The notes under the pieces are model-generated. The model saw only the letters and a program-made list of their open reading frames with translations. It was not told the DNA's origin and ran no database searches. A program made the position numbers and the translations under genes. Shown here piece by piece: positions 15,832 to 62,545 of a DNA stretch of 64,000 bases (position 1 is its first letter; each line of letters starts with the position of its first letter). The DNA is from a virus, in IMG/VR virus record IMGVR_UViG_3300019487_000025; one strand, 5' to 3'.

Positions 15832-18030
15832 TGGACACACCAACATTCTTAAATCACAAGGCACGAGTATTGAACGAAATATTACAAAGTGCAAGATCAT
15901 TAAACGATAATGGATTTTTGAACGCGGAAGGTCATCTTAGGGAAGCATTAGGATTGATGAAATCATTACAAAAGGAAATGAAAAAAGATGAAAAAACATC
16001 CATTTAGAACTAATTGGTGGAGTCATACATGTTCGGACGGAACAATTATATGGAAACGTAAACAGTATCTACATTGTGATAAATGTGGGTATATTAACGG
16101 AAGAACACATATTGCGAGGAAAACAATATGACTACAACAGACGAAGAAGTGGATAAATTGGTAGAGGACTTAAAAAAGACTGGATTTAATGTTGTTGCTT
16201 ATGGAAAAGCTAAAGACTTGTTAAAATTAATGGAAGAAGGAGAATTTTCCGAGAAGACAAAGGAGGAAAGTAAATGACTGAAAAAGACATTCCAAATTTG
16301 TTAAGAGAAATTTATAGATTGAGTCATCTTTATGAAAATGATAAAAGAAGTCCTACTAAATTACGTGATAGATTAGATGCTATTAACAGTTTAATAATGA
16401 CATTGTGGATTGCAGTAGTAAAAAAACAAAGTTGGGGTGCAGTTTCTGAAAGTGAAATTTTAGGAGAAAACTAAATGACAGATTATCAAACATGTCCAAC
16501 ATGTAAAAAATATTTTAGTCTCGAACAAGCTGATTTATGTCATTTCTGTCCATATTGTGGTGAAGATCTTTGGTATCAACTAGAAGAAATAATGAAGGAG
16601 ATAAATAAATAATGGCATGTTGGCATAGATTTAAGAAAAGACAAAAAGGTTTATGTTTAAGATGTAGGGTTCTTGATAATAAATATGTGTTTTATGCTTC
16701 TATAGTATATTGCGTTATTTTATATTTTACAGGAATACATCATTTATATTGGAAGATTTATGATTTGAGACATAAGGAGAAGAAACAATAATGCATGGTC
16801 AAAAAATAATTAATGTAATATGTCATGTTTGTGGCGAAAAAATGCCTGATTTAGTTGATGATCACTGTTGGGGTATTTCAGAATGTTTATGTGGTAATTG
16901 GTACGATGTACAAGGTGCAAGAACAAAGGGTGGAGGTAAACTAGTTGGATAAGACAATAATGAGATTGTGGTATTGTAAAGCCGATAAAAAAACAGGCAA
17001 ACCGATTATAGTACAGGATCTAGAAAAAGGAATAATTTATAATACAAACAAAATAGATATGAAGAACGTTAATATTAGGATGTCTTTTAACAACGCCATG
17101 GGCAAAGCCAAATACAGTGGAGCTACCACAATTCTAGAGGTTTATAAAAATGACTAAAATACCAACAAAGAAACTTAATGAAGAATCGGAATTCGAACAT
17201 GTTGCAAACATTTACGGTCAATATATGGAAGCATTAAAGAAATTTCCAAATAAGTCACAGGAAGAACAACAGGAGTTTCTTGTGGGGTTTGGTAAAGACA
17301 TGAATACTCTTCTACTGGTTCTTTATGAGTGGATTCACAGGAATGACGGAAAAGAAGGAAATTAAGGTAAAAGGTATTATATCTGGATATACGAGTCTAC
17401 AAGAAGAAAACGTTGTTACACTTAAAGTAAAAACTGATGGATTATCAAAAGAAGACTTAAGTATGTTGAAAGAGTTATATCAATTTGGGAAAGGAGGTTT
17501 GAAACCAAAAGCTATACTTAGAATAATATTTGATGGTACAACATATGAATTATTAGGTGCTTATAAAAATGCTTACTGATCTTAATGCTAAATTTATGAA
17601 TATGATAGAGGAAATTATTAGGGAAAAATACCAGCATGCTGAAGCAGAGTTAGAAAAAGCCAAACATCATAAGGAACTGCTGGAATTACCACCAAAAAAG
17701 GAAAATTGGAGTGCACAGGAAAACGCAGAAGAAAAAATGATGGAACACATAAAAAAAACTCTACAGATAATGGCAGAAGTTGACATATTAATGGATGGGT
17801 TACTTGTATTTCAAGATGGTTTAACATATAGGCGATTAAGAGAAAAGGGTACAATACGAAAAAGTGTAAGGTGAAACAAAGTGGGATTTGCTGAAGACAA
17901 AAGATGGGATAAATACAAAGACGATCCACATAGACCCGGAATTTTACCACCAGATAAAAAAGTAAAAATATATTTAGGATTATCTACAATAGGCATGGCA
18001 TTATTTTTAGCTTTATTGTGGTTATCACCA
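15831..18030 (+). other. Run of short coupled + strand ORFs (incl. 16274..16474, 16945..17157, 17150..17365, 17325..17579, 17557..17874 and several <60 aa CxxC peptides)
   Basis: Overlapping stop/start junctions; no recognisable families. Confidence 0.5.
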
Positions 18031-18062
18031 TAGGATACCTTTATATTATTCTATATAGTTAA

Positions 18063-18335
18063 TTGTATATCATAATGGCTGGGGATACATGTGGTAAATG
18101 TCATTCGGAAACTATACTTAACATTATCGTAGGATTTACTATTTCATATTTGGTTAATTTTTTAGTTGTTCCGCATTTTGCAGAAGGCATAAAAAACTAT
18201 GATTTTTTAGCTAGTTTTGCAGTAACAGTAATTTTTACTATCGCTTCTTATATTAGAGGATTTTCAATAAGAAGATTATTTGCTAAGTTAGGAAATAATT
18301 ATACGTTATTATCGTTTTTTAGATCCAAGCTATAA
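18063..18335 (+). CDS. Conserved viral two-TM membrane protein
   Basis: SETILNIIVGF...P.F...FTIASYIRGFSIRRLF pattern recalled from phage proteins. Confidence 0.6.
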   Translation: MYIIMAGDTCGKCHSETILNIIVGFTISYLVNFLVVPHFAEGIKNYDFLASFAVTVIFTIASYIRGFSIRRLFAKLGNNYTLLSFFRSKL

Positions 18336-18367
18336 GATTATATAACCCACAAATACAACTAAACTTC

Positions 18368-18682
18368 ATGAACAGGAAGATAGCTATATTACCACTAATC
18401 GCTATGGTATTCACCGTAGGATTAATTAGTTCGGTAAGTGCTTCAAATTGGGAAGTAGAAAAAACATTCGCTGGAGATGGTTCTGGCGAAGGTAACGTTT
18501 CAGAAAACCCGGCAATAGCAGAAAGAAGTGTATTAAGACCTCATTCATATGGTAACTTACAAGATCCACCTCAAACAGTGTGTGGAGATCACATCTGCAA
18601 ACCGGGCGAAAATGCACCAGTTTTGTCTAAATTTAAGACATATGGTGGATACACTGAACGAAAACACATAGATACACCATAA
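18368..18682 (+). CDS. Secreted protein with thaumarchaeal VCGDHIC motif
   Basis: Signal peptide; TVCGDHICKPGE resembles the VCGD.LC motif recalled from Nitrosopumilaceae secreted proteins. Confidence 0.6.
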   Translation: MNRKIAILPLIAMVFTVGLISSVSASNWEVEKTFAGDGSGEGNVSENPAIAERSVLRPHSYGNLQDPPQTVCGDHICKPGENAPVLSKFKTYGGYTERKHIDTP

Positions 18683-18857
18683 GGAAGTAATTCCTTTTTT
18701 ATTTTTTTATATTAATTTATATTACGCTTAGGTGTTTATTTCTCTGTGATTAAGAAAGCAGATTTGTTTGAAAACAGTATTGGAGGAGTATTAAAAGTTG
18801 GGTTTTACTATGAATTGAAACGAGTATTAGATGAGTTAGTTGATAAGGTAAACGATC

Positions 18858-19424
18858 TTGATAGAAGGGTGGGTAGCGATGAATTATCTTGAATATGAGC
18901 ACATAATAGAACAATTTGATGTTTATCCATATGACACTCACAAAACACTGTATTATATTACTGGAGTAAATGGAGAATATGATGAATTATTAGAAAAGAT
19001 ATATGAATCTAGGATTAACAACGAAATTAATAGAGAAGAGTTAATGAAGGAAGGAGGTGATGTTTGTTGGTATCTTACAAGATTGGCTAACTCATTTAAT
19101 ATTTCCATTGCAAAATTAATACCAAGTCAAATACCAAAACCCAATTCATTTGAAGAATTAATGAAAATGATTCATCACGCAAGAGGAAAACTAACTGAAA
19201 CAATAAAGAAACTGTACAGAGATAACAGAGGAAAAGCAGATTATCAGGTTATGATAAATATAGATGTTTATCTATGTAAAGCTTTTGCTGTATTAAAATT
19301 ACTTGGAGAGAACTATCAAATAAGCCTAATTGATATGATGGAATCAAACGTAAAAAAACTAACACTTAGAAAAGAGAAAAATCTATTACATGGTAGTGGA
19401 GATAGTAGGGAGGTAACACTTTAA
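18858..19424 (+). CDS. mazG: MazG-like nucleotide pyrophosphohydrolase with duplicated helical unit
   Basis: GEYDELLEK...KEGGDVCWYL; C-terminal NVKKLTLRKEKNLLHGSGDSR typical of viral MazG-like proteins. Confidence 0.8.
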   Translation: MIEGWVAMNYLEYEHIIEQFDVYPYDTHKTLYYITGVNGEYDELLEKIYESRINNEINREELMKEGGDVCWYLTRLANSFNISIAKLIPSQIPKPNSFEELMKMIHHARGKLTETIKKLYRDNRGKADYQVMINIDVYLCKAFAVLKLLGENYQISLIDMMESNVKKLTLRKEKNLLHGSGDSREVTL

Positions 19425-19699
19425 ATGAGTGAAGAGCCAGTAAATCCATATTATTTCTATGATGAATTTTCAAGAGAGGACTTGAAAGAAGCATTGGTGA
19501 AAAGAGTATTTGAATTTGATAGTTATATAAGATGGGCAGAGCGATCTTTGGAAGAAGTTAAATACATCCAAATGGTATTGAGAATGAGGAAAAAATGAGT
19601 ATGTGCAACAAATGTGTATGGAACCATGATAATAAAAAAGATGTATTAATGCCAAATCATTGTAAATGCGAATGTCATACATTCAGGGGGGTTTAAATA

Positions 19700-20405
19700 A
19701 TGCATTATACATGTCCAAAACCAGATTGTTCTTTTACAAGTAATGAGAATGACAATATACGAGAAATATTAGAACATGAAAAAACTCATCCAAAAGAAGA
19801 AGTTATTACAATAAATCCAATTACCACAGAAACATGTAAATTTTGTAACGGCAAAGGTTACGTAGAAGTGAATATTAGATGTATTCAAAACCCATAGAAG
19901 GTGAAACAAATCTCACCTATATAATGGCACTTCAAAGAGAAATCAATGACTATACTGGATTATTAGAAGCAATAGAAAACTCACCAGTAAAAGAATATGT
20001 AAAAAGAGTTCCAGATTTTTTTATGTGTTATGAAAGCATAAAGGCGGGAATAGAATCAAGAAAAAAGAGATTAGAGCAAGTAGTAAGAGAAGACACATGT
20101 ATATTCTGTGGGGATTTAACAATAATTTGGTATGAAGAGAAGTATAAAGGTTATATGGGTCGGTGTGATAGATGTGAGAGTAATTGGAGGGAATCCTAAT
20201 GTTTGGGTTTGATAAGAAAAAAACTACAAAGAAGAAAATAACTAAGGAAGTAAAAAAAGGTGTAGAAAAGGGCAGAACACCAATTAAAGGGATTGTGAGG
20301 TGCGAATGTCCAAAACACAAATGTAGTGGATTTTCTAGATTTAGGGATTATTTATGTAATAATTGTTATGAAAAGGTTAAATGTAATAAAGAACAGGTAA
20401 TATAA
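19700..20405 (+). other. Three coupled zinc-finger ORFs (19700..19897, 19879..20199, 20184..20405)
   Basis: C2H2-like CPKPDC...HEKTH plus CxxC pairs. Confidence 0.55.
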
Positions 20406-20406
20406 T

Positions 20407-20853
20407 ATGGGACAAGTGGGAGCAGGAAGAATAGACAGACAGGAAAAATGTGTAGTTTGCCAAAAAACATTTGAAGAGGATGAATTAATCTTAACACCGT
20501 ATAATTTAACAAATACAGTTGAATTAATGTGCGGATCTTGTTCAAAAACACAAACTGTAGAAAGCGTTGAAGAAGTTCTAATAAAAACAGAAATAACAGA
20601 AGATAAAATAGACGTAACTACAGCAAAAAAACCAAACAAAATGAAGGAAGCAGTTAACGACACGAAAAAAGAAGTAAAAGCAAAGTCAACGTGTGCCTGT
20701 GCTAAATTTCCTTTATGTAAAGCCGTTAGAGCAATTCAGGCATTTGATGAGTTTTCTAATTCTGAGATACGAGCATATTTTATAAGTGCATATGGAGATT
20801 ATTATAAAATAGACTTTTGCCCGTTTTGTGGAAGTGGACTGTATAAACAATGA
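20407..20853 (+). CDS. Multi-zinc-finger protein
   Basis: CVVC, CGSC, CAC...C, CPFCG. Confidence 0.6.
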   Translation: MGQVGAGRIDRQEKCVVCQKTFEEDELILTPYNLTNTVELMCGSCSKTQTVESVEEVLIKTEITEDKIDVTTAKKPNKMKEAVNDTKKEVKAKSTCACAKFPLCKAVRAIQAFDEFSNSEIRAYFISAYGDYYKIDFCPFCGSGLYKQ

Positions 20854-21242
20854 AAGCAACAAACAAACAAAAACAAAAAATGAGAGAATATAATAAACTT
20901 CATGTTGATATAATTAATGCTCGTGCAAGAGAATGGAATAAAAATAATAAAGAAAGAAGAAATGAGCATAGTAGAAGATTTAGAAAAAATCATCCGGGTT
21001 ATTTTACAGGAAAAACAATTAGAGTAGGAAAAAAAAGAATTTATTTAGGTTACAACCCAAGAAAAGGAATATGTGGTGATTGTGGAAAAACCAACGCAAA
21101 AACAGTTCTTCATCATCTCAAATATGATTTAAAAAATCCCTTAGCACATACATTTGAATTATGTATTGGATGTCATGCAAGACAGCACAGATTAATGAAA
21201 TATAAAGGAAAGAGATCTGATCGTTTATATATATCAAGATAG
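20850..21242 (+). CDS. HNH endonuclease-like protein
   Basis: CGDCG...VLHHLKY...ELCIGCHARQH with basic N-terminal helix. Confidence 0.7.
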   Translation: MKATNKQKQKMREYNKLHVDIINARAREWNKNNKERRNEHSRRFRKNHPGYFTGKTIRVGKKRIYLGYNPRKGICGDCGKTNAKTVLHHLKYDLKNPLAHTFELCIGCHARQHRLMKYKGKRSDRLYISR

Positions 21243-21531
21243 TGAAAGCTTATATAAGCAATAGAGGTATTGGAGATATGCCTTATGACATGAGATGCCC
21301 CATGTGTGGAAGTTATGGAATTAAAGACATTTGTAATAGCTGTGGATTACCATTTTGTATAAACCATATTTTTAGACACAGAAACTGTAAAGAGGGACGA
21401 TAATGAATCAATGTATAAAATATCCAGATGATTGTAGCGGTAAAGTCATATATGATGATATAGAAGATAAATGGTATTGTACGAAACATTTTTATACTCT
21501 GGAGCACTTAAAAGAAACAGGTAGAAAATAA

Positions 21532-21816
21532 ATGGTAATAGCAGAACCTTGGTATCCGGGAATTCCATGGAAACAACCGTGGACAACACCACAACCATAT
21601 CCAGAAGTTTGTCCCATTGTCACTGGAACATATACAGTTGAAAGAATAAAGGAAGTGGAAAAAAAGTGGAAAGAGAAACACATCAAAAATGTAAAGAAAG
21701 GAATCTTTATTACATTTGAAGGAGATGAAGAACCTCTTTTCATTGCAACAGATGACGCATGTTTTCAGAAGATAATGGATGCAATAAAAGACGAAAAGAC
21801 AAGTAAAAAACCTTAA
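21532..21816 (+). CDS. Hypothetical protein with Pro/Trp-rich N-terminus
   Basis: ORF track. Confidence 0.55.
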   Translation: MVIAEPWYPGIPWKQPWTTPQPYPEVCPIVTGTYTVERIKEVEKKWKEKHIKNVKKGIFITFEGDEEPLFIATDDACFQKIMDAIKDEKTSKKP

Positions 21817-21839
21817 ATAGTTATATACTACAAAGTAGT
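21816..21839 (+). promoter_or_regulatory. Second repeated promoter motif with inverted repeat
   Basis: aatagttatatactacaaagtagt; 22/24 identical to 27061..27084. Confidence 0.55.
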
Positions 21840-22180
21840 AAGATAATTGGTATACATGCACTGTATGAAATGCGGGTCTTTACTCGATAGCATAAGTGAT
21901 GAGCAAATGGTCGGCAGACATATAACTTTGTGTCCAAGGGATGCACTTTACGAAAAAAACATTCCGGAAGAAACAAAGGAAGAGGAAGATTTCTAGAGAA
22001 ATAATCGGTTTTTCTAGAATGTTTATATTGTGAAATATCCACCTTAGAGTATGAAAATACTAAATAGTGGAGAGCATTTCGTAGTAAAGACTGTCGATGG
22101 AGAAGGGCTAGAGTATGAAACAACAAACAATTTATTAACCCCTTTCAAGTTAATTAAAACATTATCAAAGAAAGAGGTTA

Positions 22181-22435
22181 ATGAGTATGAAACTACATGC
22201 TAGAATACTGGAATATTTAATGATTGTGGGAATCGCTTATGGCACATACGCGATCATATTATCACCTATATTTTATTTTGGTTCTGTTGGAATGTCATTA
22301 GAACAAATCAAAGAGTGGCTTTGGCAAGGATTATTAGTTGATTTGTGCATTGCATATCCAGTTGGTAAGTTAACTATTAAGATAAGAAAAAAATACAAGG
22401 GGTTGTTTGATGGAAAACAAATGTTATTTTTGTGA
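22181..22435 (+). CDS. Membrane protein
   Basis: Two hydrophobic segments. Confidence 0.55.
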   Translation: MSMKLHARILEYLMIVGIAYGTYAIILSPIFYFGSVGMSLEQIKEWLWQGLLVDLCIAYPVGKLTIKIRKKYKGLFDGKQMLFL

Positions 22436-22613
22436 TTCTACAGATACAACGTATTGTTCAGTATGTGGTCATTATTTTTGTGATAACTGTAGAAAAAACA
22501 AATCTAAAAGAATAGTTGCTATGGCTAAAGAATGGTGTAAAAAGATGGGTTGGGGCGAATTTTTGACTCCAGAAGAAGTAGAAGAACGAAAGAAAAAAGA
22601 AAGCAATCATTAA
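22407..22613 (+). CDS. Zinc-finger protein (CYFC...CSVCGHYFCDNC)
   Basis: Treble-clef-like Cys pattern. Confidence 0.6.
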   Translation: MMENKCYFCDSTDTTYCSVCGHYFCDNCRKNKSKRIVAMAKEWCKKMGWGEFLTPEEVEERKKKESNH

Positions 22614-22642
22614 TATATGGGAAATGACGAATTAAACCAAGT

Positions 22643-23047
22643 ATGGCAAAAGATATAAAAGCTGGTGGTTACGTAACAAAAGATTCTGGAAAAAGGGAAA
22701 ACCACAAATCAGGTGCTGTACGTGATATCAGATTTGGCAAAGGTAGATATGATTTAATTTCACCATTAGCCACAAAGCGAAGAGCTGGTGTTTATGAAAG
22801 AGGTGCATTAAAATATGAGGATAGAAATTGGGAAAAAGGAATGAAGCTAAGTCGATATCTTGATTCTGCAAAAAGACATTTGGATCAATATCAAGAAGGA
22901 TTGAGAGATGAAGATCATTTGGCACAAGCAGGATGGAATATAGATGCTATGATGCACACGGAAGAAATGATTAAACGTGGGTTTTTACCAAAAGAATTAG
23001 ATGATTTACCAAGATATGTAAAAAAGCAAAAAAATGAGGCGAAATAG
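22643..23047 (+). CDS. dATP/dGTP diphosphohydrolase domain protein (DUF5664-like)
   Basis: SGAVRD...GKGRYDLI...GALKYEDRNWEKG...YLDSAKRHL...EDHLAQAGWN. Confidence 0.85.
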   Translation: MAKDIKAGGYVTKDSGKRENHKSGAVRDIRFGKGRYDLISPLATKRRAGVYERGALKYEDRNWEKGMKLSRYLDSAKRHLDQYQEGLRDEDHLAQAGWNIDAMMHTEEMIKRGFLPKELDDLPRYVKKQKNEAK

Positions 23048-23518
23048 TTATAAAGGTTATATTTAAGGTGATCGTATGTTACTTGATATGAATCTAACTG
23101 TGGAAACTGCTAAAATGGCATATAACTGGTTTCATCACGCTTTTCCAAATTACAAATATAATCGATATTGTAGTGAAGAAGATATAAGATTACGGGATGA
23201 ATTGGAACAATGGCTGATAAAACAAGGAGAGTAAATGATCCTCATGTTGAGATTGAGGTAAAAATGTTACAATTAAAATTAGAACAAATAGATTTACTTG
23301 AAAGACTAAAGAGAAATAAAAAAGAGTTTGATAAATTGTTTAAAAAATTATTGGCAATCAACAAGGGATTTAAAAATGAATAAGACTGAAAAATCTCAAA
23401 AGAAATGCATATTTTGTGGAGTACCACTAACCAAAAAAGAAAGCGGTGTATGTAAATTCTGTAGTAAATACAATTAACGATAAATTAATATACCCCTTTA
23501 TTCTTAGTTAATATTAGA

Positions 23519-23785
23519 ATGGCAGAGCAACAAGAAAAGCCAAAATACAATTCCAAGTTTACAGAAATTAAACGTTGGAAGAGTTCTGAAGCCCAAGACA
23601 AAGAGCTTGTCTTTAGCCTCATTACTGATCTCGATACAGGAAAGAAAAAGTTCTTTCTAAACGAGCAAGGTAAAACGAAGGCTGGAGAGAAGTACAGCAA
23701 AAAAGGCACAGTTATCCCAGTCGCATTAGCTTCTGAGGTAGCCGACTCTTTAAGAATTGCGAGTGCTACAGAGGTGACTGGGTAA
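23519..23785 (+). CDS. Possible PC4/PUR-like single-stranded nucleic-acid-binding protein
   Basis: Beta-rich small protein ending KKGTVIPVALASEVADSL; standalone transcription unit. Confidence 0.4.
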   Translation: MAEQQEKPKYNSKFTEIKRWKSSEAQDKELVFSLITDLDTGKKKFFLNEQGKTKAGEKYSKKGTVIPVALASEVADSLRIASATEVTG

Positions 23786-23806
23786 AACCCAGTATTTCTT
23801 TTTTTT
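23777..23806 (+). terminator. Hairpin plus T-run terminator
   Basis: ACTGGGT-AAA-ACCCAGT followed by atttctttttttt. Confidence 0.7.
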
Positions 23807-24039
23807 ATGGTGATGATATGAAATATAGATATTCAGTTCGATTTATTAACAAAAACGGGGATTGGCAGGAAGAAGATGCATTTGAAACATATAATGAAGC
23901 CAATGAAATAAAAGATAAAGTAATGGCAAGAGAGAATAGAGAAACCAAAGTTATAGATTTAGAGAAACAAGAGGATACGTATTACTAATGACAACATCAG
24001 CAATTATCGCAATAACAGAAGATTTGGATAAGATAGATA

Positions 24040-24429
24040 ATGATTGAACCAGTTTTTATAATGACGATATGTTCGTTAACACTAATGTCGCCATATTATG
24101 ACTGTTCTAGTGAAGTGACGATTCAAATATATGAAGATAGACTTCCAGATACTAAAGCAATAGGAATCACTGAATGGACACGCAATCCATTTTTGGGTAA
24201 AGGAATCATATCTTTGGCTGGTGATTATAAAGAACGCAGAGGTACACATGATCACTTTTTAAAGGGAGGAGGTGTTTTATGGCATGAAATATTACATATA
24301 AAGTGTAAATGTGATTGGCATGCACATTGGGATACACTAAAACAAATCAGCGATGATAATAAATCTCATATTAGAGTACCACCTATACCACAAGAAGTTT
24401 TACCATATTTGGTTATTAAGGGAAAATGA
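24040..24429 (+). CDS. Putative zinc metallopeptidase (HExxH)
   Basis: GVLWHEILHIKC; hydrophobic N-terminus. Confidence 0.55.
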   Translation: MIEPVFIMTICSLTLMSPYYDCSSEVTIQIYEDRLPDTKAIGITEWTRNPFLGKGIISLAGDYKERRGTHDHFLKGGGVLWHEILHIKCKCDWHAHWDTLKQISDDNKSHIRVPPIPQEVLPYLVIKGK

Positions 24430-24839: not shown

Positions 24840-24872
24840 CAGAGCGTTTATATAATGGAGACAATTAAGTGA

Positions 24873-26755: not shown

Positions 26756-26779
26756 ATTCATATTAAACAATAACTATTC

Positions 26780-52901: not shown

Positions 52902-52903
52902 AA

Positions 52904-53014: not shown

Positions 53015-53040
53015 TATAAGCTAGCTAGTTTATATTAATC

Positions 53041-54245: not shown

Positions 54246-54736
54246 TGGCAGACGCATTACTTTTTTATAGACTTGAAGCAAGTAAACAATCTGTAACTCC
54301 AAATCCAAATAATTTACCAATTTCACAAAAATTACAATTTACTTTGCCAGAGGAATTACTGGAATCTGTTTCTCTTATCCATGAAAATAACATAAAAGAT
54401 TCACCAGTATCTAATGCATCTGGAGCAAGAAAAGTAGCCAAACAAGACAATGGATTGCAAGGACTTACACTGACTTTTAGAGGACGTTTTAGAGATGCTA
54501 GTACAGACATTACAAAGATACAATCTTTTGCAAAACGACTGCAAGTTGAAGGACAATTTCATCAATATGGAATATTTGGGTTTAAAGCATCTAATACAGT
54601 TTCAACGCCGTTTAATTTCGATCCTACAGATCAATTTGGATTCACCATAAAAAGACTGTTAATTTCAAGAGTAGGAGGTAAACCCAAGAACTTTGATTTT
54701 GAGCTAATCTTAACTTCTGGTGGTACATTACAATGA
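54245..54736 (+). CDS. Distal tail-like protein
   Basis: GTG start overlapping previous stop; gene order. Confidence 0.45.
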   Translation: MADALLFYRLEASKQSVTPNPNNLPISQKLQFTLPEELLESVSLIHENNIKDSPVSNASGARKVAKQDNGLQGLTLTFRGRFRDASTDITKIQSFAKRLQVEGQFHQYGIFGFKASNTVSTPFNFDPTDQFGFTIKRLLISRVGGKPKNFDFELILTSGGTLQ

Positions 54737-57700
54737 GTTTTATTAATCCCAATGCTTTTTATCAAGAAGAGTTAATTTTATTAGATAAAAATTTAGAAGC
54801 ACCAACACCAATTACAGAAGGACAAGTAATAAATGGTGATTTGCAACCATTTAGAGCTAGGTTAGAACTAGTTAATACAGGTAATGAATTACAAAATAAT
54901 GGAGTTATTACGTTGAGAATACCACCTGACGGAACATTTGTAAGAAAAGAGCCAATATTAATAGATGAAAGTGCAAAAGACGATTATATTATTCAAGCAA
55001 GAATAAAGCAAGACAGAGATAAAGATGGCGTATATGAAACAGAAGGAAGATTATTTAGATTTTTTATAGGGCAACCATCACTGATAGACAATGCACTTAC
55101 TGGCGAAACATTAAAAATAACATTAATTTCTGTTGAATATCATACGAGAGAAACACTTGATTCAGAAAGAATAACATTTCCATTTAAAACACCAAAGGAA
55201 GCATTTTTTAGAAGAGTATCCGCATACAACACAATAAAAGGCAACCAAAACACTCAATTAATATTTACATCTAGTGATATAAAACTACCAAATGCAGAAT
55301 CACTAAGACAAGACTGGAGACCATTAGCACCAACACCAACACATGATTTGCTTAGAGAAATAGTAAAAAGACAGTCTTTATCGGGTATTGAAGGAGGTGT
55401 TTTTCGAGACTTCTTTTTTGATTATGAACCATTTGCACTTTCAACTAAAGCGGTATCACTAAAAGCAGAAGAGGAAGGAACTACCAATAGAGGTGTAATA
55501 TTAGATCCACTTACTTTTAATTTTGTTTCTGATACTGAGAAAGATAAAACCATCAACGTTGATCTGATTAAATTTAAAAATAACATTATAATGGAAGGTA
55601 ATCCACTAGGAGGAACTTTGCCAATGGAAAATGCACGGTTTTCTTCTATATATGAACATGCAAAAATAAGACCTGATTGGGATTCAACTACGCAATATTT
55701 TAATGGGTCTAATAATACAGATCAAAGTGAGATAAAAGTTTTTGATCAAGTTTTAAGTCAACCAAGATTTTTCAAAGCATTACAAACAACTGGAAATATA
55801 AACATTAATCCATTAGATCATCCAAGCAGAGCACTTTTTTGGGAAGAAGATTTTGTAACAATTCCAGATTATAACAAGTATGCTAGTTATAACGAAGATG
55901 ATATAATAGTTTATGATGGTGGTTCTGGAACAGTAAGGTTTTATAGAGCACTTCAAGATGTTCCAAACAATCCCACTAATTTATCAACATACATACCACA
56001 AGTCGGCGGAACACCATATTGGCAAGACACAGGCAGATCGTTTCCAGCCGGATTGGAACATCCATTAAAAGATCCTAGTGTACCGACAGGTTTGGCAAGA
56101 GCAGGAAGAACACAATTTTTTAGTTATACACCATGGACTGAAGATTTTGAAGCTATGAGAGTTGCAACACTATTTGGAATTGGTGATTCACAACAAGAAG
56201 ATAACTTCGAAGAAGCTGGATATCAAGGAGTAGTGCCTGACTGGAATTTTGTACGATCAAATTTTGATAGAGTTGATGCTCTTAATCAATATGAACAAGT
56301 TGTGGGAAAAGACGTAATAAAAACATTATCTAACGCACCACCAGAAGGAGAAAGATATTTAGGAGCAAGGTATTTAGTGTCAGCAAGTCCAACAGGATTA
56401 TTTACTGGACAAGCAAATAGAATAGCCGAATATATAGGTCCTGATTTTGGTCTTTCTGCAAATACTGTAGATGAGTGGGCATTTAGTAAGTTTCCAGAAC
56501 ATGGTGAAGTAATTTGTCATCAAGCAAGGGGTGTTATGCTAGTATGGAGAAATACAACTGCTCAATGGGAAGATTTTTCAAATATTTTAGACGTAACACC
56601 GGGAAATGTTGATGATACAATATGGAAAAAAATAATAGATGGAACAATAGCATCAACATTCTTTTTTATAATAACAGCATTAGGACCTATTGCTGGTACA
56701 GCGGTTTCATTTTTATTTGATACGGCGACATTTGCCAGTGCAACAAAACAATCACCATTACATATTTGTAAAGATATAAAATTAGTGGAAGGTGCAAGTG
56801 GAATTCCGGGTCAGGCATTTGAATTAAGATTTGATTGGAATCCATTTAAATCTAATTTTCATTTTAATGGTGAATCAGGTGGTGATAAGAAAAACTATAA
56901 TAGTATAGGTGCATGGTGGTATATGTCATTTCCGTATCCAAAAATACCTACGTTTGGGAGAAATGTCGGTGATACATATCAAAATCCAGTAATAGATTCT
57001 AATAATCTAACATTAAATCACAAAGGAGAATATGGTTGGAATAACGGTTTAGATAGTGAAGATTTAGGAAGAATACAAAAAGTTCATTTTAAAGCAAGAT
57101 TATCATTATATGGTTCAGTGTTTGGACAGTTGGCTTTAGGCTATGCTGATATGCCAATGATTTTTTGGGCAGTTGATATATTTGATAGAATTTGGTATGC
57201 TCAATTTAAGTTAAGAAGAAATGGTCAATATTCATATCAATCATTATCATTTGGTGAAAATTCAATGCAGTTAATTCACCACGGACGATATGATGAATAC
57301 CTTAAGTTGTTTGGCATAGTTTTAGAAACAGATTGGCTAATAAAAGAAAAAGAATTTAGTGGAATTGAGTTTGACTGGAGATTTGTAAAAGGAATGGGAA
57401 TGTTTTATGAAGCTGGTTATAATAATGAAGGATTATATGTAGCAAATCAATTTCCAGACTATGTAAAAAATATATCAGAACAAGTAGCAGGTCAAACATT
57501 TCCGTTTATTGTTTCAACTGCATTACCGGGTGAAGCATATCAACCAAAAGATTTATTGGTTAACAATGCCAGATTAGCAATAGATGAACTTCATTTTGAA
57601 AAACAATCATTTGTAAATTCAGATGATCAGTCACTCAGAGTCCTAGGAGCTAATTCAAGAACTAAATTGGATCACGATGCTTCTGAAGTTGATTACTTGA

Positions 57701-57933
57701 ATTTGAAAATAAAAGCACAAGCTTCAAGAGAAAGAAAGAAATTTGTTGAGCAGGCTTGGTTTATGCAATGTCACGGAGATGTAAGATTAAGATTTGGAGA
57801 AGAATTTATAGCACAAGGAGATAGAGTTCCCGGCGGTTCGCAAGAATTAATATGTGCAGAAGTTAAACATATTATAGATAATGATGGTTATATGATGCAA
57901 ATTACAGGCAAACGAAAGTTTGTTTTTGAATAA
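54733..57933 (+). CDS. Tail tip/baseplate hub-like protein
   Basis: 1066 aa; C-terminal GDVRLRFGEEF...EVKHIIDNDGYMMQITG typical of hub OB region. Confidence 0.6.
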   Translation: MSFINPNAFYQEELILLDKNLEAPTPITEGQVINGDLQPFRARLELVNTGNELQNNGVITLRIPPDGTFVRKEPILIDESAKDDYIIQARIKQDRDKDGVYETEGRLFRFFIGQPSLIDNALTGETLKITLISVEYHTRETLDSERITFPFKTPKEAFFRRVSAYNTIKGNQNTQLIFTSSDIKLPNAESLRQDWRPLAPTPTHDLLREIVKRQSLSGIEGGVFRDFFFDYEPFALSTKAVSLKAEEEGTTNRGVILDPLTFNFVSDTEKDKTINVDLIKFKNNIIMEGNPLGGTLPMENARFSSIYEHAKIRPDWDSTTQYFNGSNNTDQSEIKVFDQVLSQPRFFKALQTTGNININPLDHPSRALFWEEDFVTIPDYNKYASYNEDDIIVYDGGSGTVRFYRALQDVPNNPTNLSTYIPQVGGTPYWQDTGRSFPAGLEHPLKDPSVPTGLARAGRTQFFSYTPWTEDFEAMRVATLFGIGDSQQEDNFEEAGYQGVVPDWNFVRSNFDRVDALNQYEQVVGKDVIKTLSNAPPEGERYLGARYLVSASPTGLFTGQANRIAEYIGPDFGLSANTVDEWAFSKFPEHGEVICHQARGVMLVWRNTTAQWEDFSNILDVTPGNVDDTIWKKIIDGTIASTFFFIITALGPIAGTAVSFLFDTATFASATKQSPLHICKDIKLVEGASGIPGQAFELRFDWNPFKSNFHFNGESGGDKKNYNSIGAWWYMSFPYPKIPTFGRNVGDTYQNPVIDSNNLTLNHKGEYGWNNGLDSEDLGRIQKVHFKARLSLYGSVFGQLALGYADMPMIFWAVDIFDRIWYAQFKLRRNGQYSYQSLSFGENSMQLIHHGRYDEYLKLFGIVLETDWLIKEKEFSGIEFDWRFVKGMGMFYEAGYNNEGLYVANQFPDYVKNISEQVAGQTFPFIVSTALPGEAYQPKDLLVNNARLAIDELHFEKQSFVNSDDQSLRVLGANSRTKLDHDASEVDYLNLKIKAQASRERKKFVEQAWFMQCHGDVRLRFGEEFIAQGDRVPGGSQELICAEVKHIIDNDGYMMQITGKRKFVFE

Positions 57934-57944
57934 GGTGAAACGAA

Positions 57945-60900
57945 ATGAGTTATGAACCAGACACAATGGATCGAGCAATAAGAGAAGTAAGGGAAGAATT
58001 AAACAAAATAAGAGAGCAACAATTTTTTAAGGCATTTTCAACAGGTTCAGGTGGTTCTGGTGTATCTAAATCAGGTAGCAGTATAGGTGGTTCATTGCCA
58101 GCAACAGGTATAGCTTCATTTACACCAAACGCAATTAGACTAACTAAAGATACTGGCGTAATAGACAAATTGGATTATAAAAATCTAGTTTTAAATATGG
58201 ATTTTACTATAGGAGAAACAATAACTGGTGGGACATCTGGTGCAACCGCTGTTATTGGAGATATAGATATATTGACTTCAACTACTGGTGTTCTAATACT
58301 TGTTCCTAATTCTATTTCTGGAGTTTTTGTGGATAGTGAAAACTTAACTGGAGACATAAATGGAGATGCAGATGTTGATGGAACACTTTACACACAAACT
58401 GGTAGAGGTCACCTAAATGCTGGTTCTGCTTCAATTATAGTAATAGGTGTTGATTTACCATATGAAATTCATTTTATAGATAATGCAAAACAAAACGGAC
58501 AAATAGTATTATTAAGAGCACAAGACACTCAAACAATAAAAGTTAGAAGAGCAGTAACAAACGATAGAAACACAGGAAACATAGATTTGGATTCTTCGTT
58601 TAATATAGTAGAAAATGCAATAGTAATTCTTCAATATCAAGGAGCAAGTAATGTAACACCTGATGGTGGTTGGGTTCCAGTTTTATCTAGTGTTACTACA
58701 ACCACTGGTACTGGTACTGGCATAGATTTTCCAATACTTTATCCTAAAGAAGATTTAGGAGATCAATCATTTGTAACTGTAAGTCTATTATTGAATCAAT
58801 CAAATGGTCACTACAAAAGAATAAGAATGACTGGAGACATATCATTGGCATTTAACAGTCCACCACCTTCAACGAATGGATTTAAATTTTATGTATTATT
58901 AGTTCAGGATGGAACTGGAGGATGGGATTTAACATCATTACCAACTTCTGTTAAAAATGGTTCTTCTATATTAACACAAATAGATTCAACTGCAAATTCA
59001 CAAACTTTAATACAATTTGTAACTGCTGATGGAGGAATAACATATCACGCACAAATAATACAACCATCTGGTTCTGCAATAGATAATCCTTGGACTACTA
59101 ATCATGATGCAAATACATATGATTTATTTAATTTGGATAAACTATTATTTGCACCAGCGGGTGGATTTAGTTTCCCTACAGATAATACATTAAAAGGATT
59201 TTCAACGTCAGGTACGGGCATAGAAGCAAATGTTTCACCATCACAACAATATAGATGGTATATCGGTGGTTTCGAACATATGACATTAGATACTTTTGAT
59301 TTGTTTATGCATAATTTTAATATAAGAGATTTGAAATTATTAGCTTTTAGCAATAACGGTTCGTTCAGTGCTCAGATAGCAAGCATTCCATCTAGTGCTC
59401 AATTAAACTATTCTGTAGTTGGTGCAGGTGCGAATCATGGATTTTATGTAGATAATGGAGTAAATGCAAACATGGAAATGAGATTGAATGTTAATAAATC
59501 AAATGTTAATTTAGACATGGTTACAAATGATATATTAAATATAGATCAAGCACAATTTGATCAGTTTGGTGGATTTGTTCCTTCAATCAATCACGGTGAA
59601 AGAAGAATTACTGGTGGTAATGCTGGAATAAATATAAACATACCACAACCACCAGAACCAATTCTTAGATCACTAAGAATCTGGATAGAGAATGCAACAC
59701 AAACAAATAGTAATGTAGAGTATGAATTTAATAAGGATAAAGCATTGTGGAATAATAATATAATTCAAGATTTAGGTGGAATAATATTCACTCCGTTTTC
59801 GGGATTTTCTGCTTCTATATCTCCCCTTTTTAATTTTATTGAATATAATACAGGAGTTTCTACGATGGCACATAGATTTAATGTTGCTGGTATACAAGTA
59901 TTAGAAATAAATGGAACGGAAACTGGTACAAATCAAGGTAAAATCAAATTGTTCCATGATCTTAATCTTCAAACACAAGATATAACTAATGTTGATAGAT
60001 TACATTTCAATTCAAATAACGGATTGGTTGGAGGAAACCAATTTGCAATCGCTGGTGATTTTCCACTTGGAAGAGGATTTCAATTTAATGCCCCATTAAG
60101 CAAACAATTTAGATTCAGTGAGAATGATATACCAATAATGCAATTAACAAACGGACTTCTTGAAATGAAGACAACTGTTTTTGAACCTAATCCAACAATT
60201 AGTACGCATCAATTATTTTTATCTACACATACGGCAGGAATAACTGGAATGGGTGATGGAGTGATTAGATTAGTAAATAATGGAGGTTCATTTGATGTAA
60301 TGGTGGGAACTGGTGGGTTTATAAGAAATTTGACAAATCCGGGTACAACATCATTTGTAGGATTTACAGCAGATGATGATCTAAACATGGGTACTTTCAA
60401 TATCTTTAATGTAGATGTGATAAGATATGCAATAGACAGTGGGGTAATAGGATTTGGAGAATATGGCTCAGCTGTTGATTCAACTAATACAAAATTAAAA
60501 TGGAGTGTTCCAATAAATAAATTCTACGAATTTGAAGTTAATCTAGATCCAGTTGCATCTATAAGCACCGCTGGAATACAAGCTTTATCAAATACATTAA
60601 TTCCAAATCCATCGGTAAGGGCTAGGGAACTTGCATTATCTGGAGCACATACTGGAGGAGTCAGTGGAATGGCTAACGGTGCATTTAGATTAGTAGGAAC
60701 AGATGTTATAGTTAGAACAGGAAGTAACAATCTTAATTTATCATCACTTGTTGCTAGTTCTGGAGCTACAAGACAATTAGATAATCTTTTAGTTACTTCA
60801 ATTAATGCCGATTTACTTCCTCAAACTAACCTTTCGATTGGAAGTTCACTTTCAGTATGGGATGATGTATTTGCCAAATTAACAGATTATGCTTCAGTAG

Positions 60901-61526
60901 CTTCTACAAATAGTTCAAGAAGACAAATATTTAGAGATGTTTCGGGTGGAATAGGTGTTAATGTTCCAACAGGGGATCAAGTGAGATTTTATAGACAAGG
61001 AACATTTGGATTTGGTATAAGTGGAAATGATATTACTGTTACAGGATATACAAATACAAATAGAATTCAATTAGGAGTTTCACCAAGTAATCCAACATTT
61101 CCGGGAGAATTTAGAATGGTTGGTTCTGACGTTTTTGTATTTTCTGGCGGTGTTGCAAGAAATCTATCATCAATCGGTGTAGGTGGAGTAGATCAAAACA
61201 ATACATGGACTGGTACAAATACATTTACTGCTCCAGTTACTTTTACTAGTAACGTTACTTTTGTAGATGGCACTATATCGATTTTTGACATAGCAGGAAC
61301 CGCTGTTAACTTAATTACTGCACAAACTATAACTGGTAATAAGACATTTAGTGGTTCTTCAGTATTTAGCGGATCATGGAGACATACAGGTTCACAATTA
61401 GCGTTCTTTGGATCAAGTTTACAATCAAAGTTACCAACTGTTTCAGCAACTGGTTCTCTAGCATCTGTAACTTCTGCATTTAATTTATTAAGAAATGTTC
61501 TAGTCCAATATGGATTAATTAACTAA
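57945..61526 (+). CDS. Tail fibre/receptor-binding protein
   Basis: Gly/Thr-rich modular repeats; C-terminal LAFFGS...LRNVLVQYGLIN. Confidence 0.75.
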   Translation: MSYEPDTMDRAIREVREELNKIREQQFFKAFSTGSGGSGVSKSGSSIGGSLPATGIASFTPNAIRLTKDTGVIDKLDYKNLVLNMDFTIGETITGGTSGATAVIGDIDILTSTTGVLILVPNSISGVFVDSENLTGDINGDADVDGTLYTQTGRGHLNAGSASIIVIGVDLPYEIHFIDNAKQNGQIVLLRAQDTQTIKVRRAVTNDRNTGNIDLDSSFNIVENAIVILQYQGASNVTPDGGWVPVLSSVTTTTGTGTGIDFPILYPKEDLGDQSFVTVSLLLNQSNGHYKRIRMTGDISLAFNSPPPSTNGFKFYVLLVQDGTGGWDLTSLPTSVKNGSSILTQIDSTANSQTLIQFVTADGGITYHAQIIQPSGSAIDNPWTTNHDANTYDLFNLDKLLFAPAGGFSFPTDNTLKGFSTSGTGIEANVSPSQQYRWYIGGFEHMTLDTFDLFMHNFNIRDLKLLAFSNNGSFSAQIASIPSSAQLNYSVVGAGANHGFYVDNGVNANMEMRLNVNKSNVNLDMVTNDILNIDQAQFDQFGGFVPSINHGERRITGGNAGININIPQPPEPILRSLRIWIENATQTNSNVEYEFNKDKALWNNNIIQDLGGIIFTPFSGFSASISPLFNFIEYNTGVSTMAHRFNVAGIQVLEINGTETGTNQGKIKLFHDLNLQTQDITNVDRLHFNSNNGLVGGNQFAIAGDFPLGRGFQFNAPLSKQFRFSENDIPIMQLTNGLLEMKTTVFEPNPTISTHQLFLSTHTAGITGMGDGVIRLVNNGGSFDVMVGTGGFIRNLTNPGTTSFVGFTADDDLNMGTFNIFNVDVIRYAIDSGVIGFGEYGSAVDSTNTKLKWSVPINKFYEFEVNLDPVASISTAGIQALSNTLIPNPSVRARELALSGAHTGGVSGMANGAFRLVGTDVIVRTGSNNLNLSSLVASSGATRQLDNLLVTSINADLLPQTNLSIGSSLSVWDDVFAKLTDYASVASTNSSRRQIFRDVSGGIGVNVPTGDQVRFYRQGTFGFGISGNDITVTGYTNTNRIQLGVSPSNPTFPGEFRMVGSDVFVFSGGVARNLSSIGVGGVDQNNTWTGTNTFTAPVTFTSNVTFVDGTISIFDIAGTAVNLITAQTITGNKTFSGSSVFSGSWRHTGSQLAFFGSSLQSKLPTVSATGSLASVTSAFNLLRNVLVQYGLIN

Positions 61527-61552
61527 TAGGTTATATATGAGAGTGTGGAAAT

Positions 61553-61801
61553 ATGATTATGGCAATAGATGAAAATGTGGTTACAACTTTACTTGAAAAA
61601 TTATATATAAAGTTAAGCGAAACAGTTGATACTGAAAGACGGTTAGGGCAATTAATTAATGCTTTAATTACAATAAGAAAAGCACCAGATGATTCTTTAC
61701 CAATAGATACATTAACAGGTAATACAATGACTGAAGATAGAAGAAGCGAAATACTTGAAGCGACAATAAGGAACTCAATTCAATTTGTCGGAGGTGAATA
61801 A
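61553..61801 (+). CDS. Hypothetical protein (possible fibre chaperone)
   Basis: Follows fibre gene. Confidence 0.55.
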   Translation: MIMAIDENVVTTLLEKLYIKLSETVDTERRLGQLINALITIRKAPDDSLPIDTLTGNTMTEDRRSEILEATIRNSIQFVGGE

Positions 61802-61803
61802 CA

Positions 61804-62094
61804 ATGAGCAAAAAGAACAATAAAGGTGTAGTAGATTTATCACAACCAAAAGGAGCAGAACCAAAAACTCCACAGCCAGAGCAACCACAAATGACTGAAG
61901 AACAAGCATTTATGGCTTATATAAATAATTTGATGAGTAACACAATATTGGAACATGAAAATGCAAAAACTTCATCAATAGAAGCAATAAAAAACATAGG
62001 TCAAAAACTAAATCTCTATATGAGAGAAGTAAGCCGACTAACAAAGGAAAATGAAGCACTTAAGAAACAGGTGGATGAACTAAAGAAAAAGTAG
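61804..62094 (+). CDS. Coiled-coil hypothetical protein
   Basis: ORF track. Confidence 0.6.
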   Translation: MSKKNNKGVVDLSQPKGAEPKTPQPEQPQMTEEQAFMAYINNLMSNTILEHENAKTSSIEAIKNIGQKLNLYMREVSRLTKENEALKKQVDELKKK

Positions 62095-62122
62095 TTCATT
62101 TATATTACCCTGCTAGGTAAAT

Positions 62123-62545
62123 GTGTCTAATATGGCAGAACTGACTCAAGAAGAAAAAGACAAAGCGTGGACTAATCTAAAATTTTGGTGGAAAGTTAAA
62201 AAAGGCGAAGAAAAAGGAGATCCAGAAAAGGCAAAAAAGGAAATAAACAAGATTCAAAAATTACTTGGTGTTGAAATAACAGATTTTGATAAAGAAGAAC
62301 CAGCCAAAGATGTAAAAGAATACACAAATGAAACAGCAGAAGCATTCTTCACAGAAGAGCAAATAGAAAAAATGAAAACCAATGTGGAAAGAGCAATCGC
62401 CATAAAATATTTATTGTCTGGCATGATAGTAAAACACATGCCGTCTTTGAAGGGAAACGCACCGGGAATTGGTCAAGTAGTAAATATCACATATGATTTA
62501 ATAAAAGATGATTTAAAGAAAATGTTGAAAGAGGATACAAAATGA
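62123..62545 (+). CDS. Hypothetical protein
   Basis: ORF track; TATA element upstream. Confidence 0.6.
   Translation: MSNMAELTQEEKDKAWTNLKFWWKVKKGEEKGDPEKAKKEINKIQKLLGVEITDFDKEEPAKDVKEYTNETAEAFFTEEQIEKMKTNVERAIAIKYLLSGMIVKHMPSLKGNAPGIGQVVNITYDLIKDDLKKMLKEDTK

What the first reader, a model, noticed from the sequence alone, without database searches (positions are those of the whole stretch)
17932..62470. Every Pro-Gly is encoded CCC/CCG-GGN: CCWGG avoidance
Seen: all 26 Pro-Gly pairs I traced use CCC or CCG (e.g. 18602, 27916, 30119, 41084, 46807, 48228, 56598, 62462) although Pro is otherwise mostly CCA/CCT in this AT-rich genome; I saw no CCAGG or CCTGG. Known: CCWGG is the EcoRII/Dcm motif. 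Inference: a second host defence specificity and a usable host-prediction fingerprint. The viral DPPY methyltransferase (748..1239) presumably protects a different motif. Erosion by 5mC deamination is an alternative cause.
Basis: partly seen in the sequence, partly recalled or inferred. Interest (0 to 1): 0.6.

Follow-up and report, generated by a model that had tools for sequence, protein, structure and literature searches.

The report
CCWGG-free archaeal virus genome
This uncultured virus, probably of ammonia-oxidising archaea, and nearly all of its relatives contain no copy of the five-letter DNA word CCWGG and spell every Pro-Gly pair with rare codons to avoid it, which is the well-known footprint of escape from DNA-cutting restriction enzymes, here unusually complete and one of at least eight such purged words.

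Summary
The 64-kb window has 0 CCWGG. A 3rd-order Markov model expects about 60. Synonymous-codon shuffles of the coding part expect 26.1 +/- 2.7. All 23 Pro-Gly pairs in confident + strand ORFs use CCC/CCG (25 with two short ORFs), although 92% of other Pro codons are CCA/CCT (Fisher p 2e-24).

The best explanation is ordinary restriction-site avoidance by selection. Deamination does not fit, because CTWGG and CCWAG are not in excess. CCWGG is not a lone "second" specificity. GGCC, GCGC, GCNGC, GGATCC, CCCGGG and GGTACC are also absent, and CAATTG nearly so. As a result the proteins have no Ala-Ala and no Trp-Pro.

CCWGG is the most conserved taboo of the virus family: 7 observed against 676 expected over 37 related genomes and contigs. 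Other words toggle between close relatives. G003 swaps GGCC avoidance for GGWCC avoidance at all 16 aligned sites. L078 uses CCWGG and bans CCSGG.

The virus is archaeal (PCNA, RadA). Its nearest named relative is a Nitrososphaera provirus. REBASE-predicted thaumarchaeal methylases target CCWGG, GCWGC, GGCC, GGWCC and GTAC.

The kind of feature is known, and this scan has already found CCWGG avoidance on other DNA (cyanophages, giant viruses). This is a new member of a known kind.

The parts
1..64000 (.). Whole window free of CCWGG. Also free of GGCC, GCGC, GCWGC, GCSGC, GGATCC, CCCGGG and GGTACC. CAATTG occurs twice (227, 31307).
   Evidence: Observed/expected by Markov model: CCWGG 0/59.9, GGCC 0/28.6, GCGC 0/22.0, GCNGC 0/43.5, GGATCC 0/11, CAATTG 2/23.6.
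17935..62466 (+). The 25 in-frame Pro-Gly pairs, all spelled CCC/CCG-GGN. First base at 17935, 18602, 20994, 21556, 27916, 28282, 28486, 28744, 30119, 33317, 33779, 34274, 41084, 41288, 41987, 46807, 47395, 48229, 56599, 56806, 57526, 57829, 60339, 61101, 62462.
   Evidence: At 17 Pro-Gly sites conserved with G002 and 8 conserved with G003 the third base is S in both genomes. At other conserved Pro codons a CCS in the window is CCW in G002 in 30 of 36 cases.
1..17900 (+). Left arm of small accessory genes under a stricter ban. It has no Pro-Gly and no Gly-Pro at all, only 3 CCGG, and no GGWCC (none before 24 kb), yet it holds 12 of the 18 CGCG.
   Evidence: Pro-Gly 0 against 8.2 expected; Gly-Pro 0 against 8.2 (0 against 10.8 up to 24 kb). 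This arm has no nucleotide alignment to G002 or G003.
721..1239 (+). Small (172 aa) SAM-dependent methyltransferase-like protein with FSGGS and DPPY motifs. Target unknown.
   Evidence: Pfam Methyltransf_11 6e-5, PHROG DNA methyltransferase 8e-10, PADLOC orphan/Type II MTase 1e-5. No PDB sequence hit.
14128..14862 (+). Archaeal-type PCNA sliding clamp (marker of the host domain).
40334..44536 (+). Portal protein with a C-terminal Rel/Spo-like domain. The domain's best named match is the Nitrososphaera provirus Pro-Nvie1.
   Evidence: 42% identity, E 2e-34. Pro-Nvie1 has the same gene order, portal, Rel_Spo, protease/MCP.
47269..49041 (+). Major capsid protein, used to collect the virus family. 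It contains two CCS-GGN Pro-Gly pairs (47395, 48229).
   Evidence: Its only hit among 50,697 phage records is the Pro-Nvie1 protease/major capsid protein, E 1e-42.
62789..63994 (+). RadA/Rad51-type recombinase (archaeal marker).

Best explanation
The virus has been purged of CCWGG by natural selection because its hosts, most likely ammonia-oxidising archaea (Nitrososphaeria), carry a restriction enzyme that cuts unmethylated CCWGG. Any site created by mutation is lethal or costly at the next infection, so sites are lost. Where the protein needs Pro-Gly, the only synonymous escape is to put C or G at the third base of the Pro codon (CCS-GGN). The other two reading frames are cleared by codon choice: no NCC before Trp or AGG, and no CAG or CTG between a codon ending in C and one starting with G. 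The same process has removed at least seven other short palindromes. Where no synonymous escape exists, the dipeptide itself is gone: Ala-Ala because of GCNGC, and Trp-Pro because of GGCC. Shown here: the absence, its statistical weight, its synonymous and context-dependent nature, its conservation across the family, and its reversal in some relatives. Inferred: that a CCWGG endonuclease exists in the host, and which organism the host is.
For: CCWGG is 0 against 59.9 (Markov) and 26.1 +/- 2.7 (codon shuffle). Pro-Gly uses CCS in 23 of 23 cases against 8% CCS elsewhere, p 2e-24. Codon choice follows context: 17 of 17 conserved Pro-Gly sites stay S in the window and G002, although four-fold sites are only 65% identical. 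The middle base flips C<->G at 6 of 18 aligned CCSGG sites and is never A or T. Where the neighbouring Gly differs between the genomes, the Pro codon is S in the genome that has Gly and W in the other (3 of 3). Across the family, 7 CCWGG are observed against 676 expected in 37 genomes and contigs with capsid identity from 46 to 93%, and the count is 0 in 34 of 36 sets with expectation of at least 5. The ban is not intrinsic to the virus. L078 spells Pro-Gly CCA-GGN, with 6 CCWGG, and has no CCSGG or CCGG. G003 has 0 GGWCC and carries GGSCC at 16 of 16 aligned sites that are GGWCC in G002. An unrelated complete virus, G006, shows the same core set: CCWGG 0/50, GGCC 0/47, GCGC 0/44. The temperate relative Pro-Nvie1 keeps CCWGG at 38/59, which matches the temperate versus non-temperate contrast reported in PMC6286503. 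A REBASE-derived table lists predicted CCWGG m5C methylases in Cenarchaeum symbiosum A and Nitrosopumilus sp. AR2, and GCWGC, GGCC, GGWCC and GTAC methylases in other Thaumarchaeota (PMC11033074).
Against: No host genome could be examined, so no CCWGG endonuclease has been shown. The REBASE entries are predicted methylases and could be orphans. The host assignment rests on distant homology to one provirus (31% and 42% identity), on archaeal replication genes, and on one MAG label. Part of the Markov expectation may be inflated by the high frequency of CCAG and CAGG. The conservative codon-shuffle expectation is 26.
Confidence: 0.8

Rival explanations
1. Erosion by deamination. CCWGG sites methylated at the inner C by a Dcm-like enzyme mutate C to T faster than other sites and decay without any selection by an endonuclease.
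For: Predicted m5C CCWGG methylases exist in some Thaumarchaeota.
Against: The decay products are not in excess: CTWGG 41 against 39.3 and CCWAG 62 against 58.6 in codon shuffles, with a Markov ratio of 0.76. Pro-Gly sites were kept by changing W to S, which deamination cannot produce and which preserves the protein. Total loss in 34 of 36 sets is not what a raised mutation rate gives. No C5 methylase gene was found in four related viral contigs.
Confidence: 0.03
2. Avoidance of being methylated. Hosts carry an orphan Dcm-like CCWGG methylase, and progeny marked with 5mC would be cut by methylation-dependent (Type IV) enzymes in the next host, so the virus removes the methylase's target.
For: The thaumarchaeal entries are methylases only. 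The outcome (no sites, synonymous escape) would look identical.
Against: It needs two host factors instead of one. The seven other purged words are classic targets of orthodox Type II enzymes, the class for which avoidance is documented (PMC6286503). Nothing here tests it directly.
Confidence: 0.08
3. Virus-intrinsic cause. The virus itself uses CCWGG, for example through its own endonuclease against host DNA or as a packaging or regulatory signal, and therefore keeps the word out of its genome.
For: The ban is conserved across a deeply diverged family.
Against: Family member L078 tolerates 6 CCWGG, three of them inside the capsid gene. An unrelated virus, G006, shares the ban. No EcoRII-C-like gene was found in G001-G004, though that search rang in no control genome and so shows little. 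No defence-type nuclease hit was found among ten window proteins.
Confidence: 0.04
4. Passive mirroring. The virus merely shares the oligonucleotide usage or mutational bias of its host, without selection acting on the virus itself.
For: Virus and host k-mer usage often correlate (own knowledge). Host genomes could not be checked.
Against: Close relatives with 85% nucleotide identity differ in an all-or-none way at exactly the middle base of GGNCC. Two different taboo sets coexist within this one window. The 3.9 kb of Nitrososphaera host flank held here has CCWGG 15/16.
Confidence: 0.05

Closest known systems
Restriction-site avoidance in non-temperate dsDNA phages and archaeal viruses (survey: Rusinov et al. 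2018, PMC6286503)
   Same: Short palindromic targets of orthodox Type II enzymes are eliminated from a dsDNA virus genome, while a temperate relative (Pro-Nvie1) is not purged.
   Different: At least eight words are eliminated at once. The ban reaches protein sequence: Ala-Ala 0/50 and Trp-Pro 0/8.8 in the window, and Pro-Gly 0/43 in G004. The host is uncultured and probably an ammonia-oxidising archaeon. The survey's text does not mention codons or amino acids (0 occurrences of either term).
Depletion of EcoRII/Dcm sites (CCWGG) in coliphages T7/T3
   Same: The same word is depleted, with the same presumed cause.
   Different: As I recall, T7 keeps a few widely spaced sites, which suffices against EcoRII because that enzyme needs two sites. 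Here the count is exactly zero over hundreds of kilobases, which suggests an enzyme that cuts single sites (MvaI/BstNI/PspGI-like). This is an inference.
Nitrososphaera provirus Pro-Nvie1 (FR725450.1)
   Same: Nearest named relative of the capsid protein (E 1e-42) and of the Rel/Spo-like domain (42% identity). It has the same portal, Rel_Spo, protease/capsid gene order.
   Different: It is integrated and 53% G+C, with CCWGG 38/59 and no purged palindromes.
Earlier findings of this scan on other DNA (cyanophages, giant viruses, a wastewater phage)
   Same: CCWGG-free genomes with Pro-Gly spelled CCS-GGN, close relatives that purge different sets, and loss of dipeptides.
   Different: This case is an archaeal virus family. 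It adds a family-wide count, clean site-by-site toggles (GGCC/GGWCC and CCWGG/CCSGG), and two taboo sets within one genome.

Membership tests
Restriction-site avoidance (Type II palindromes) in a virulent dsDNA virus | The word is far rarer than composition-matched models predict | tested here: met
   0 against 59.9 (Markov) and 26.1 +/- 2.7 (codon shuffle, minimum 19 of 200).
Restriction-site avoidance (Type II palindromes) in a virulent dsDNA virus | The word is a known recognition site of Type II restriction-modification systems | tested here: met
   CCWGG is listed for PspGI and several archaeal methylases in PMC11033074. EcoRII/MvaI/BstNI are from own knowledge.
Restriction-site avoidance (Type II palindromes) in a virulent dsDNA virus | Removal is by synonymous, context-dependent codon choice, that is, selection on the DNA rather than on the protein | tested here: met
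   23 of 23 Pro-Gly pairs use CCS. 17 of 17 conserved sites keep S, while 30 of 36 other CCS codons revert to W in G002.
Restriction-site avoidance (Type II palindromes) in a virulent dsDNA virus | The host encodes an active endonuclease for the word | not testable with these tools
   No host genome was reachable. The only support is literature: predicted CCWGG methylases in two Thaumarchaeota.
Restriction-site avoidance (Type II palindromes) in a virulent dsDNA virus | Non-temperate lifestyle | not tested
   No search for an integrase was made. G004 and G006 have direct terminal repeats, which is compatible with a free linear virion genome.
5-methylcytosine deamination erosion | Excess of the products CTWGG/CCWAG | tested here: not met
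   CTWGG 41 against 39.3 and CCWAG 62 against 58.6. Markov ratio 0.76.
Head-tailed viruses of Nitrososphaeria (Thaumarchaeota) | Structural genes related to a virus or provirus with a known thaumarchaeal host | tested here: met
   The capsid protein's only hit and the Rel/Spo domain's best hit in 50,697 phage records are both Pro-Nvie1, which has the same gene order.
Head-tailed viruses of Nitrososphaeria (Thaumarchaeota) | Direct host link (CRISPR spacer, shared tRNA, integration site) | not tested
   No tRNA in the window. Spacer matching is not possible with the tools at hand. Indirect hints are archaeal PCNA and RadA and one RadA relative binned as Nitrosopumilaceae.

The most novel reading that the evidence does not exclude
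A CCWGG-cutting enzyme is an ancient, nearly universal core defence of ammonia-oxidising archaea. It has kept a whole family of their head-tailed viruses, and at least one unrelated virus, free of the word in ocean, sediment and groundwater. The variable remainder of the barcode (GGCC or GGWCC, CCGG or CCWGG, GCWGC, GTAC, AGCT) toggles quickly enough to match uncultured viruses to individual host strains. Within one genome, the accessory arm obeys a different and stricter set than the structural arm.
Probability: 0.3. Interest if true: 0.6.

Novelty: new member of a known kind. Interest (0 to 1): 0.42.

Why it matters
Ammonia-oxidising archaea are major drivers of the global nitrogen cycle. 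Few of them are cultured, almost none has a virus in culture, and their defence systems are known mainly from gene predictions. A virus family whose genomes record which DNA words are lethal gives an indirect and testable picture of which restriction enzymes are active in these hosts. CCWGG appears everywhere; GGCC, GGWCC, GCWGC, GTAC and CCGG vary by lineage. The clean site-by-site toggles also show how quickly such bans turn over, and that they can remove whole dipeptides from viral proteins. As a phenomenon it is textbook restriction-site avoidance, and the scan has met it repeatedly.

Tried and rejected
- Megablast of 10 kb against 50,697 phage records gave no match.
- There is no whole genome for the window, so its assembly could not be searched.
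- The single genome-contig scan, run with RadA, returned only a Methanosarcina RadA at 32% identity. No Nitrososphaeria genome could therefore be reached to test host CCWGG frequency or the host's restriction-modification genes.
- The PF00145 (C5 methylase) search was negative in G001-G004. The PF01555 methylase is present in both G001 and G003, so it does not explain their difference at GGCC/GGWCC.
- The EcoRII-C search was negative but uninformative, because no control genome rang.
- The first literature search, on dipeptide bans, returned nothing relevant.
- The deamination hypothesis and the virus-intrinsic hypothesis were considered and rejected on the evidence given above.
Full report
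**1. The observation**

The window is 64,000 bases, 33.1% G+C, and almost all genes lie on the + strand. CCAGG and CCTGG each occur 0 times anywhere in the window, while CCSGG occurs 28 times. A maximal-order Markov model expects 59.9 CCWGG sites, z = -9.8, the lowest score of all 5-mers.

A stricter model keeps every protein sequence and the overall codon usage and only shuffles synonymous codons. It gives 26.1 +/- 2.7 sites in the coding part, and never fewer than 19 in 200 shuffles. By reading frame the shuffles expect 20.6 sites as CCW|GGN, 3.3 as NCC|WGG and 2.8 as NNC|CWG|GNN. All three frames are empty.

In 78 + strand ORFs there are 23 Pro-Gly pairs: 14 CCG and 9 CCC, no CCA and no CCT. 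Pro elsewhere is 560 CCA, 160 CCT, 33 CCC and 29 CCG. Fisher p = 1.8e-24. Two further in-frame pairs lie in short + ORFs at 17935 and 21556. Three CCCGG are out of frame.

**2. Selection, not decay**

Deamination of a Dcm-methylated site gives CTWGG/CCWAG. These are at expectation: 41 against 39.3 and 62 against 58.6. The change that rescues Pro-Gly (A to G, or T to C, at the third base of Pro) is not a deamination product, and it is silent.

The window was compared with two relatives, G002 and G003. They are 80% and 79% identical in nucleotides, and about 65% identical at four-fold sites.
- All 17 and 8 conserved Pro-Gly sites carry S in both genomes.
- The middle base of aligned CCSGG sites flips between C and G at 6 of 18 sites between the window and G002, and is never A or T.
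- At conserved Pro codons not followed by Gly, 30 of 36 window CCS codons are CCW in G002.
- In the three cases where the neighbouring Gly is present in only one genome, the Pro codon is S in the genome that has Gly and W in the other.

So the constraint is on the five-base word, and it is still acting.

**3. Part of a larger purge**

The following words are also absent from the window (observed/expected, Markov):

| Word | Observed/expected |
|---|---|
| GGCC | 0/28.6 |
| GCGC | 0/22.0 |
| GCWGC | 0/33.7 |
| GCSGC | 0/9.8 |
| GGATCC | 0/11.0 |
| CCCGGG | 0/5.2 |
| GGTACC | 0/6.6 |
| CAATTG | 2/23.6 |

Where the genetic code leaves no silent escape, the dipeptide itself is missing. Ala-Ala is 0 against 50.3, because GCN-GCN always contains GCNGC. 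Trp-Pro is 0 against 8.8, because TGG-CCN always contains GGCC. Pro-Gly (23 against 54.8) and Gly-Pro (27 against 54.8) are halved. I confirmed it here.

**4. The family**

The capsid gene (47269-49041) recovered relatives from IMG/VR and from metagenomes whose record names point to ocean (TARA), groundwater (Hain-H41) and other sites: 60 loci with 36 to 93% capsid identity. Three larger genomes were fetched whole.

Over 37 genomes or contigs of at least 6 kb, CCWGG is seen 7 times against 676 expected. It is absent from 34 of the 36 sets that expect at least 5. No other word is so constant:
- GGCC is absent from 18 of 23 sets.
- GCWGC is absent from 22 of 34.
- GTAC is absent from 5 of 37.
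- CCGG is absent from 6 of 22.
- AGCT is absent from 1 of 37.

G004, a complete 77.9-kb genome with terminal repeats, lacks CCNGG entirely and so has no Pro-Gly at all (0 against 42.8). It also lacks GTAC (0/162) and GAATTC (0/43). In its capsid the conserved Pro-Gly of the window is Thr-Gly.

**5. Toggles**

G003 (capsid 92% identical, 85% nucleotide identity to G002) has 0 GGWCC against 26.5 expected, but 17 GGCC, all of them inside GGSCC, equal in number to its 17 Gly-Pro pairs. All 16 alignable sites are GGWCC in G002. All 13 aligned sites that are still GGNCC in G003 are GGWCC in the window and GGSCC in G003. GGCC is still missing everywhere else in G003, and Trp-Pro is 0 against 13.1. 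This suggests a recent switch from a GGCC ban to a GGWCC ban.

L078 (capsid 49% identical) does the reverse at CCNGG. It has six CCWGG, spelled CCA/CCT-GGN, three of them inside the capsid gene, and no CCSGG or CCGG. L043 keeps the CCWGG ban (1/15) but has lost the GCGC and GCWGC bans. These all-or-none differences between relatives argue against mutational bias and against a virus-intrinsic reason.

No C5 methylase gene was found in G001-G004. An N6/N4 methylase is shared by G001 and G003, so it does not explain their difference.

**6. Two regimes inside the window**

The left 17.9 kb consists of small accessory genes and does not align to G002 or G003. It has no Pro-Gly (0/8.2) and no Gly-Pro (0/8.2). 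GGWCC does not appear before 24 kb, and only 3 of the 38 CCGG lie in the first 16 kb. Yet the left arm holds 12 of the 18 CGCG. The structural arm allows CCSGG and GGWCC and almost lacks CGCG. Either the arms have different recombination histories, or early and late DNA face different enzymes. I could not decide between these. Mosaicism is real in this family: the RadA of G003 is 49% identical to the window's, while its capsid is 92% identical.

**7. Host**

The window encodes an archaeal PCNA and a RadA/Rad51 recombinase. Among 50,697 phage records, the capsid protein hits only the Nitrososphaera provirus Pro-Nvie1 (E 1e-42). The Rel/Spo-like domain fused to the portal has that same provirus as by far its best hit (42% identity, E 2e-34), and the provirus has the same gene order. 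One RadA relative is binned as Nitrosopumilaceae. An earlier follow-up on this genome reached the same host guess (e1-5326819). The G+C content of 33% fits Nitrosopumilales (own knowledge). This is suggestive, not proven.

A REBASE-derived table (PMC11033074) lists these predicted methylases for Thaumarchaeota:
- CCWGG: Cenarchaeum symbiosum A and Nitrosopumilus sp. AR2
- GCWGC: Nitrosoarchaeum limnia
- GGCC: Nitrosopelagicus brevis
- GGWCC and GTAC: Nitrososphaera viennensis
- AGCT and GATC: Nitrosoarchaeum sp. BD3 and Nitrosomarinus catalina

Apart from GATC, each of these words is a complete taboo in one or more family members. The integrated provirus Pro-Nvie1 is not purged (CCWGG 38/59), as expected for temperate elements (PMC6286503).

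G006 is a complete 93.7-kb virus of 31.5% G+C. It has no detectable homologue of this capsid and only three weak protein matches to the window. It carries the same core bans: CCWGG 0/50, CCGG 0/42, GGCC 0/47, GCGC 0/44, CGCG 0/34 and GTAC 3/121. That points to a shared host environment rather than shared ancestry.

**8. Mechanism and rivals**

The best explanation (0.8) is selection by a host CCWGG endonuclease. A count of exactly zero over hundreds of kilobases suggests an enzyme that cuts single sites, rather than a two-site enzyme like EcoRII (inference from own knowledge).

The rivals are:
- avoidance of methylation to escape Type IV enzymes (0.08);
- passive mirroring of host word usage (0.05);
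- a virus-encoded function that uses CCWGG (0.04);
- deamination (0.03).

The DPPY protein at 721-1239 is a plausible small DNA methyltransferase with an unknown target.

**9. Novelty**

Restriction-site avoidance is long known (PMC6286503). This scan has already recorded CCWGG-free genomes with CCS-GGN Pro-Gly pairs in cyanophages and giant viruses, different sets of purged words in close relatives, and loss of dipeptides. A recent survey of viruses of ammonia-oxidising archaea does not mention restriction or palindromes.

What is new here is the setting and the resolution: an archaeal virus family, a family-wide count, and site-by-site toggles. It is a new member of a known kind, of moderate interest.

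Noticed in passing
window 1-24000 versus 24000-64000: Two different taboo sets in one genome. The left arm has no Pro-Gly, no Gly-Pro and no GGWCC, few CCGG, and most of the CGCG. The structural arm allows CCSGG and GGWCC and almost lacks CGCG.
   Followed up: partly
whole window; also G002, G003, G004: No Ala-Ala (0 against 50, 79, 55 and 52) and no Trp-Pro (0 against 9, 15, 13 and 10) in any of the four proteomes. GCNGC and GGCC avoidance force this. G004 also has no Pro-Gly (0 against 43).
   Followed up: yes
G003 (L015-L019) versus G002 (L010-L014): Complete swap of the middle base of GGNCC at Gly-Pro codons: 16 of 16 aligned sites are GGSCC in G003 and GGWCC in G002. G003 still lacks GGCC everywhere else, as if the GGCC ban was lifted only recently.
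   Followed up: yes
L078:776-6729: A family member with the reverse polarity: six CCWGG (Pro-Gly as CCA/CCT-GGN) and no CCSGG or CCGG.
   Followed up: partly
G006 (L095-L099), IMGVR_UViG_3300005573_000073: A complete 93.7-kb, 31.5% G+C virus with an archaeal-type RadA and no detectable homologue of this capsid. It shows the same core purge, CCWGG, CCGG, GGCC, GCGC and CGCG all 0, and GTAC 3/121.
   Followed up: partly
window 40334-49041 and L094 (FR725450.1) 4429-8659: The portal, Rel/Spo-like domain, protease and capsid order is shared with the Nitrososphaera provirus Pro-Nvie1. In the window the Rel/Spo domain is fused to the portal; in the provirus it is a separate gene.
   Followed up: partly
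L025 (G003) versus L007-L009: The RadA of G003 is only 49% identical to the window's, while its capsid protein is 92% identical. The replication and structural modules have different histories.
   Followed up: no
window 227 and 31307: These are the only two CAATTG in the window (23.6 expected). G002, G003 and G004 have none.
   Followed up: no
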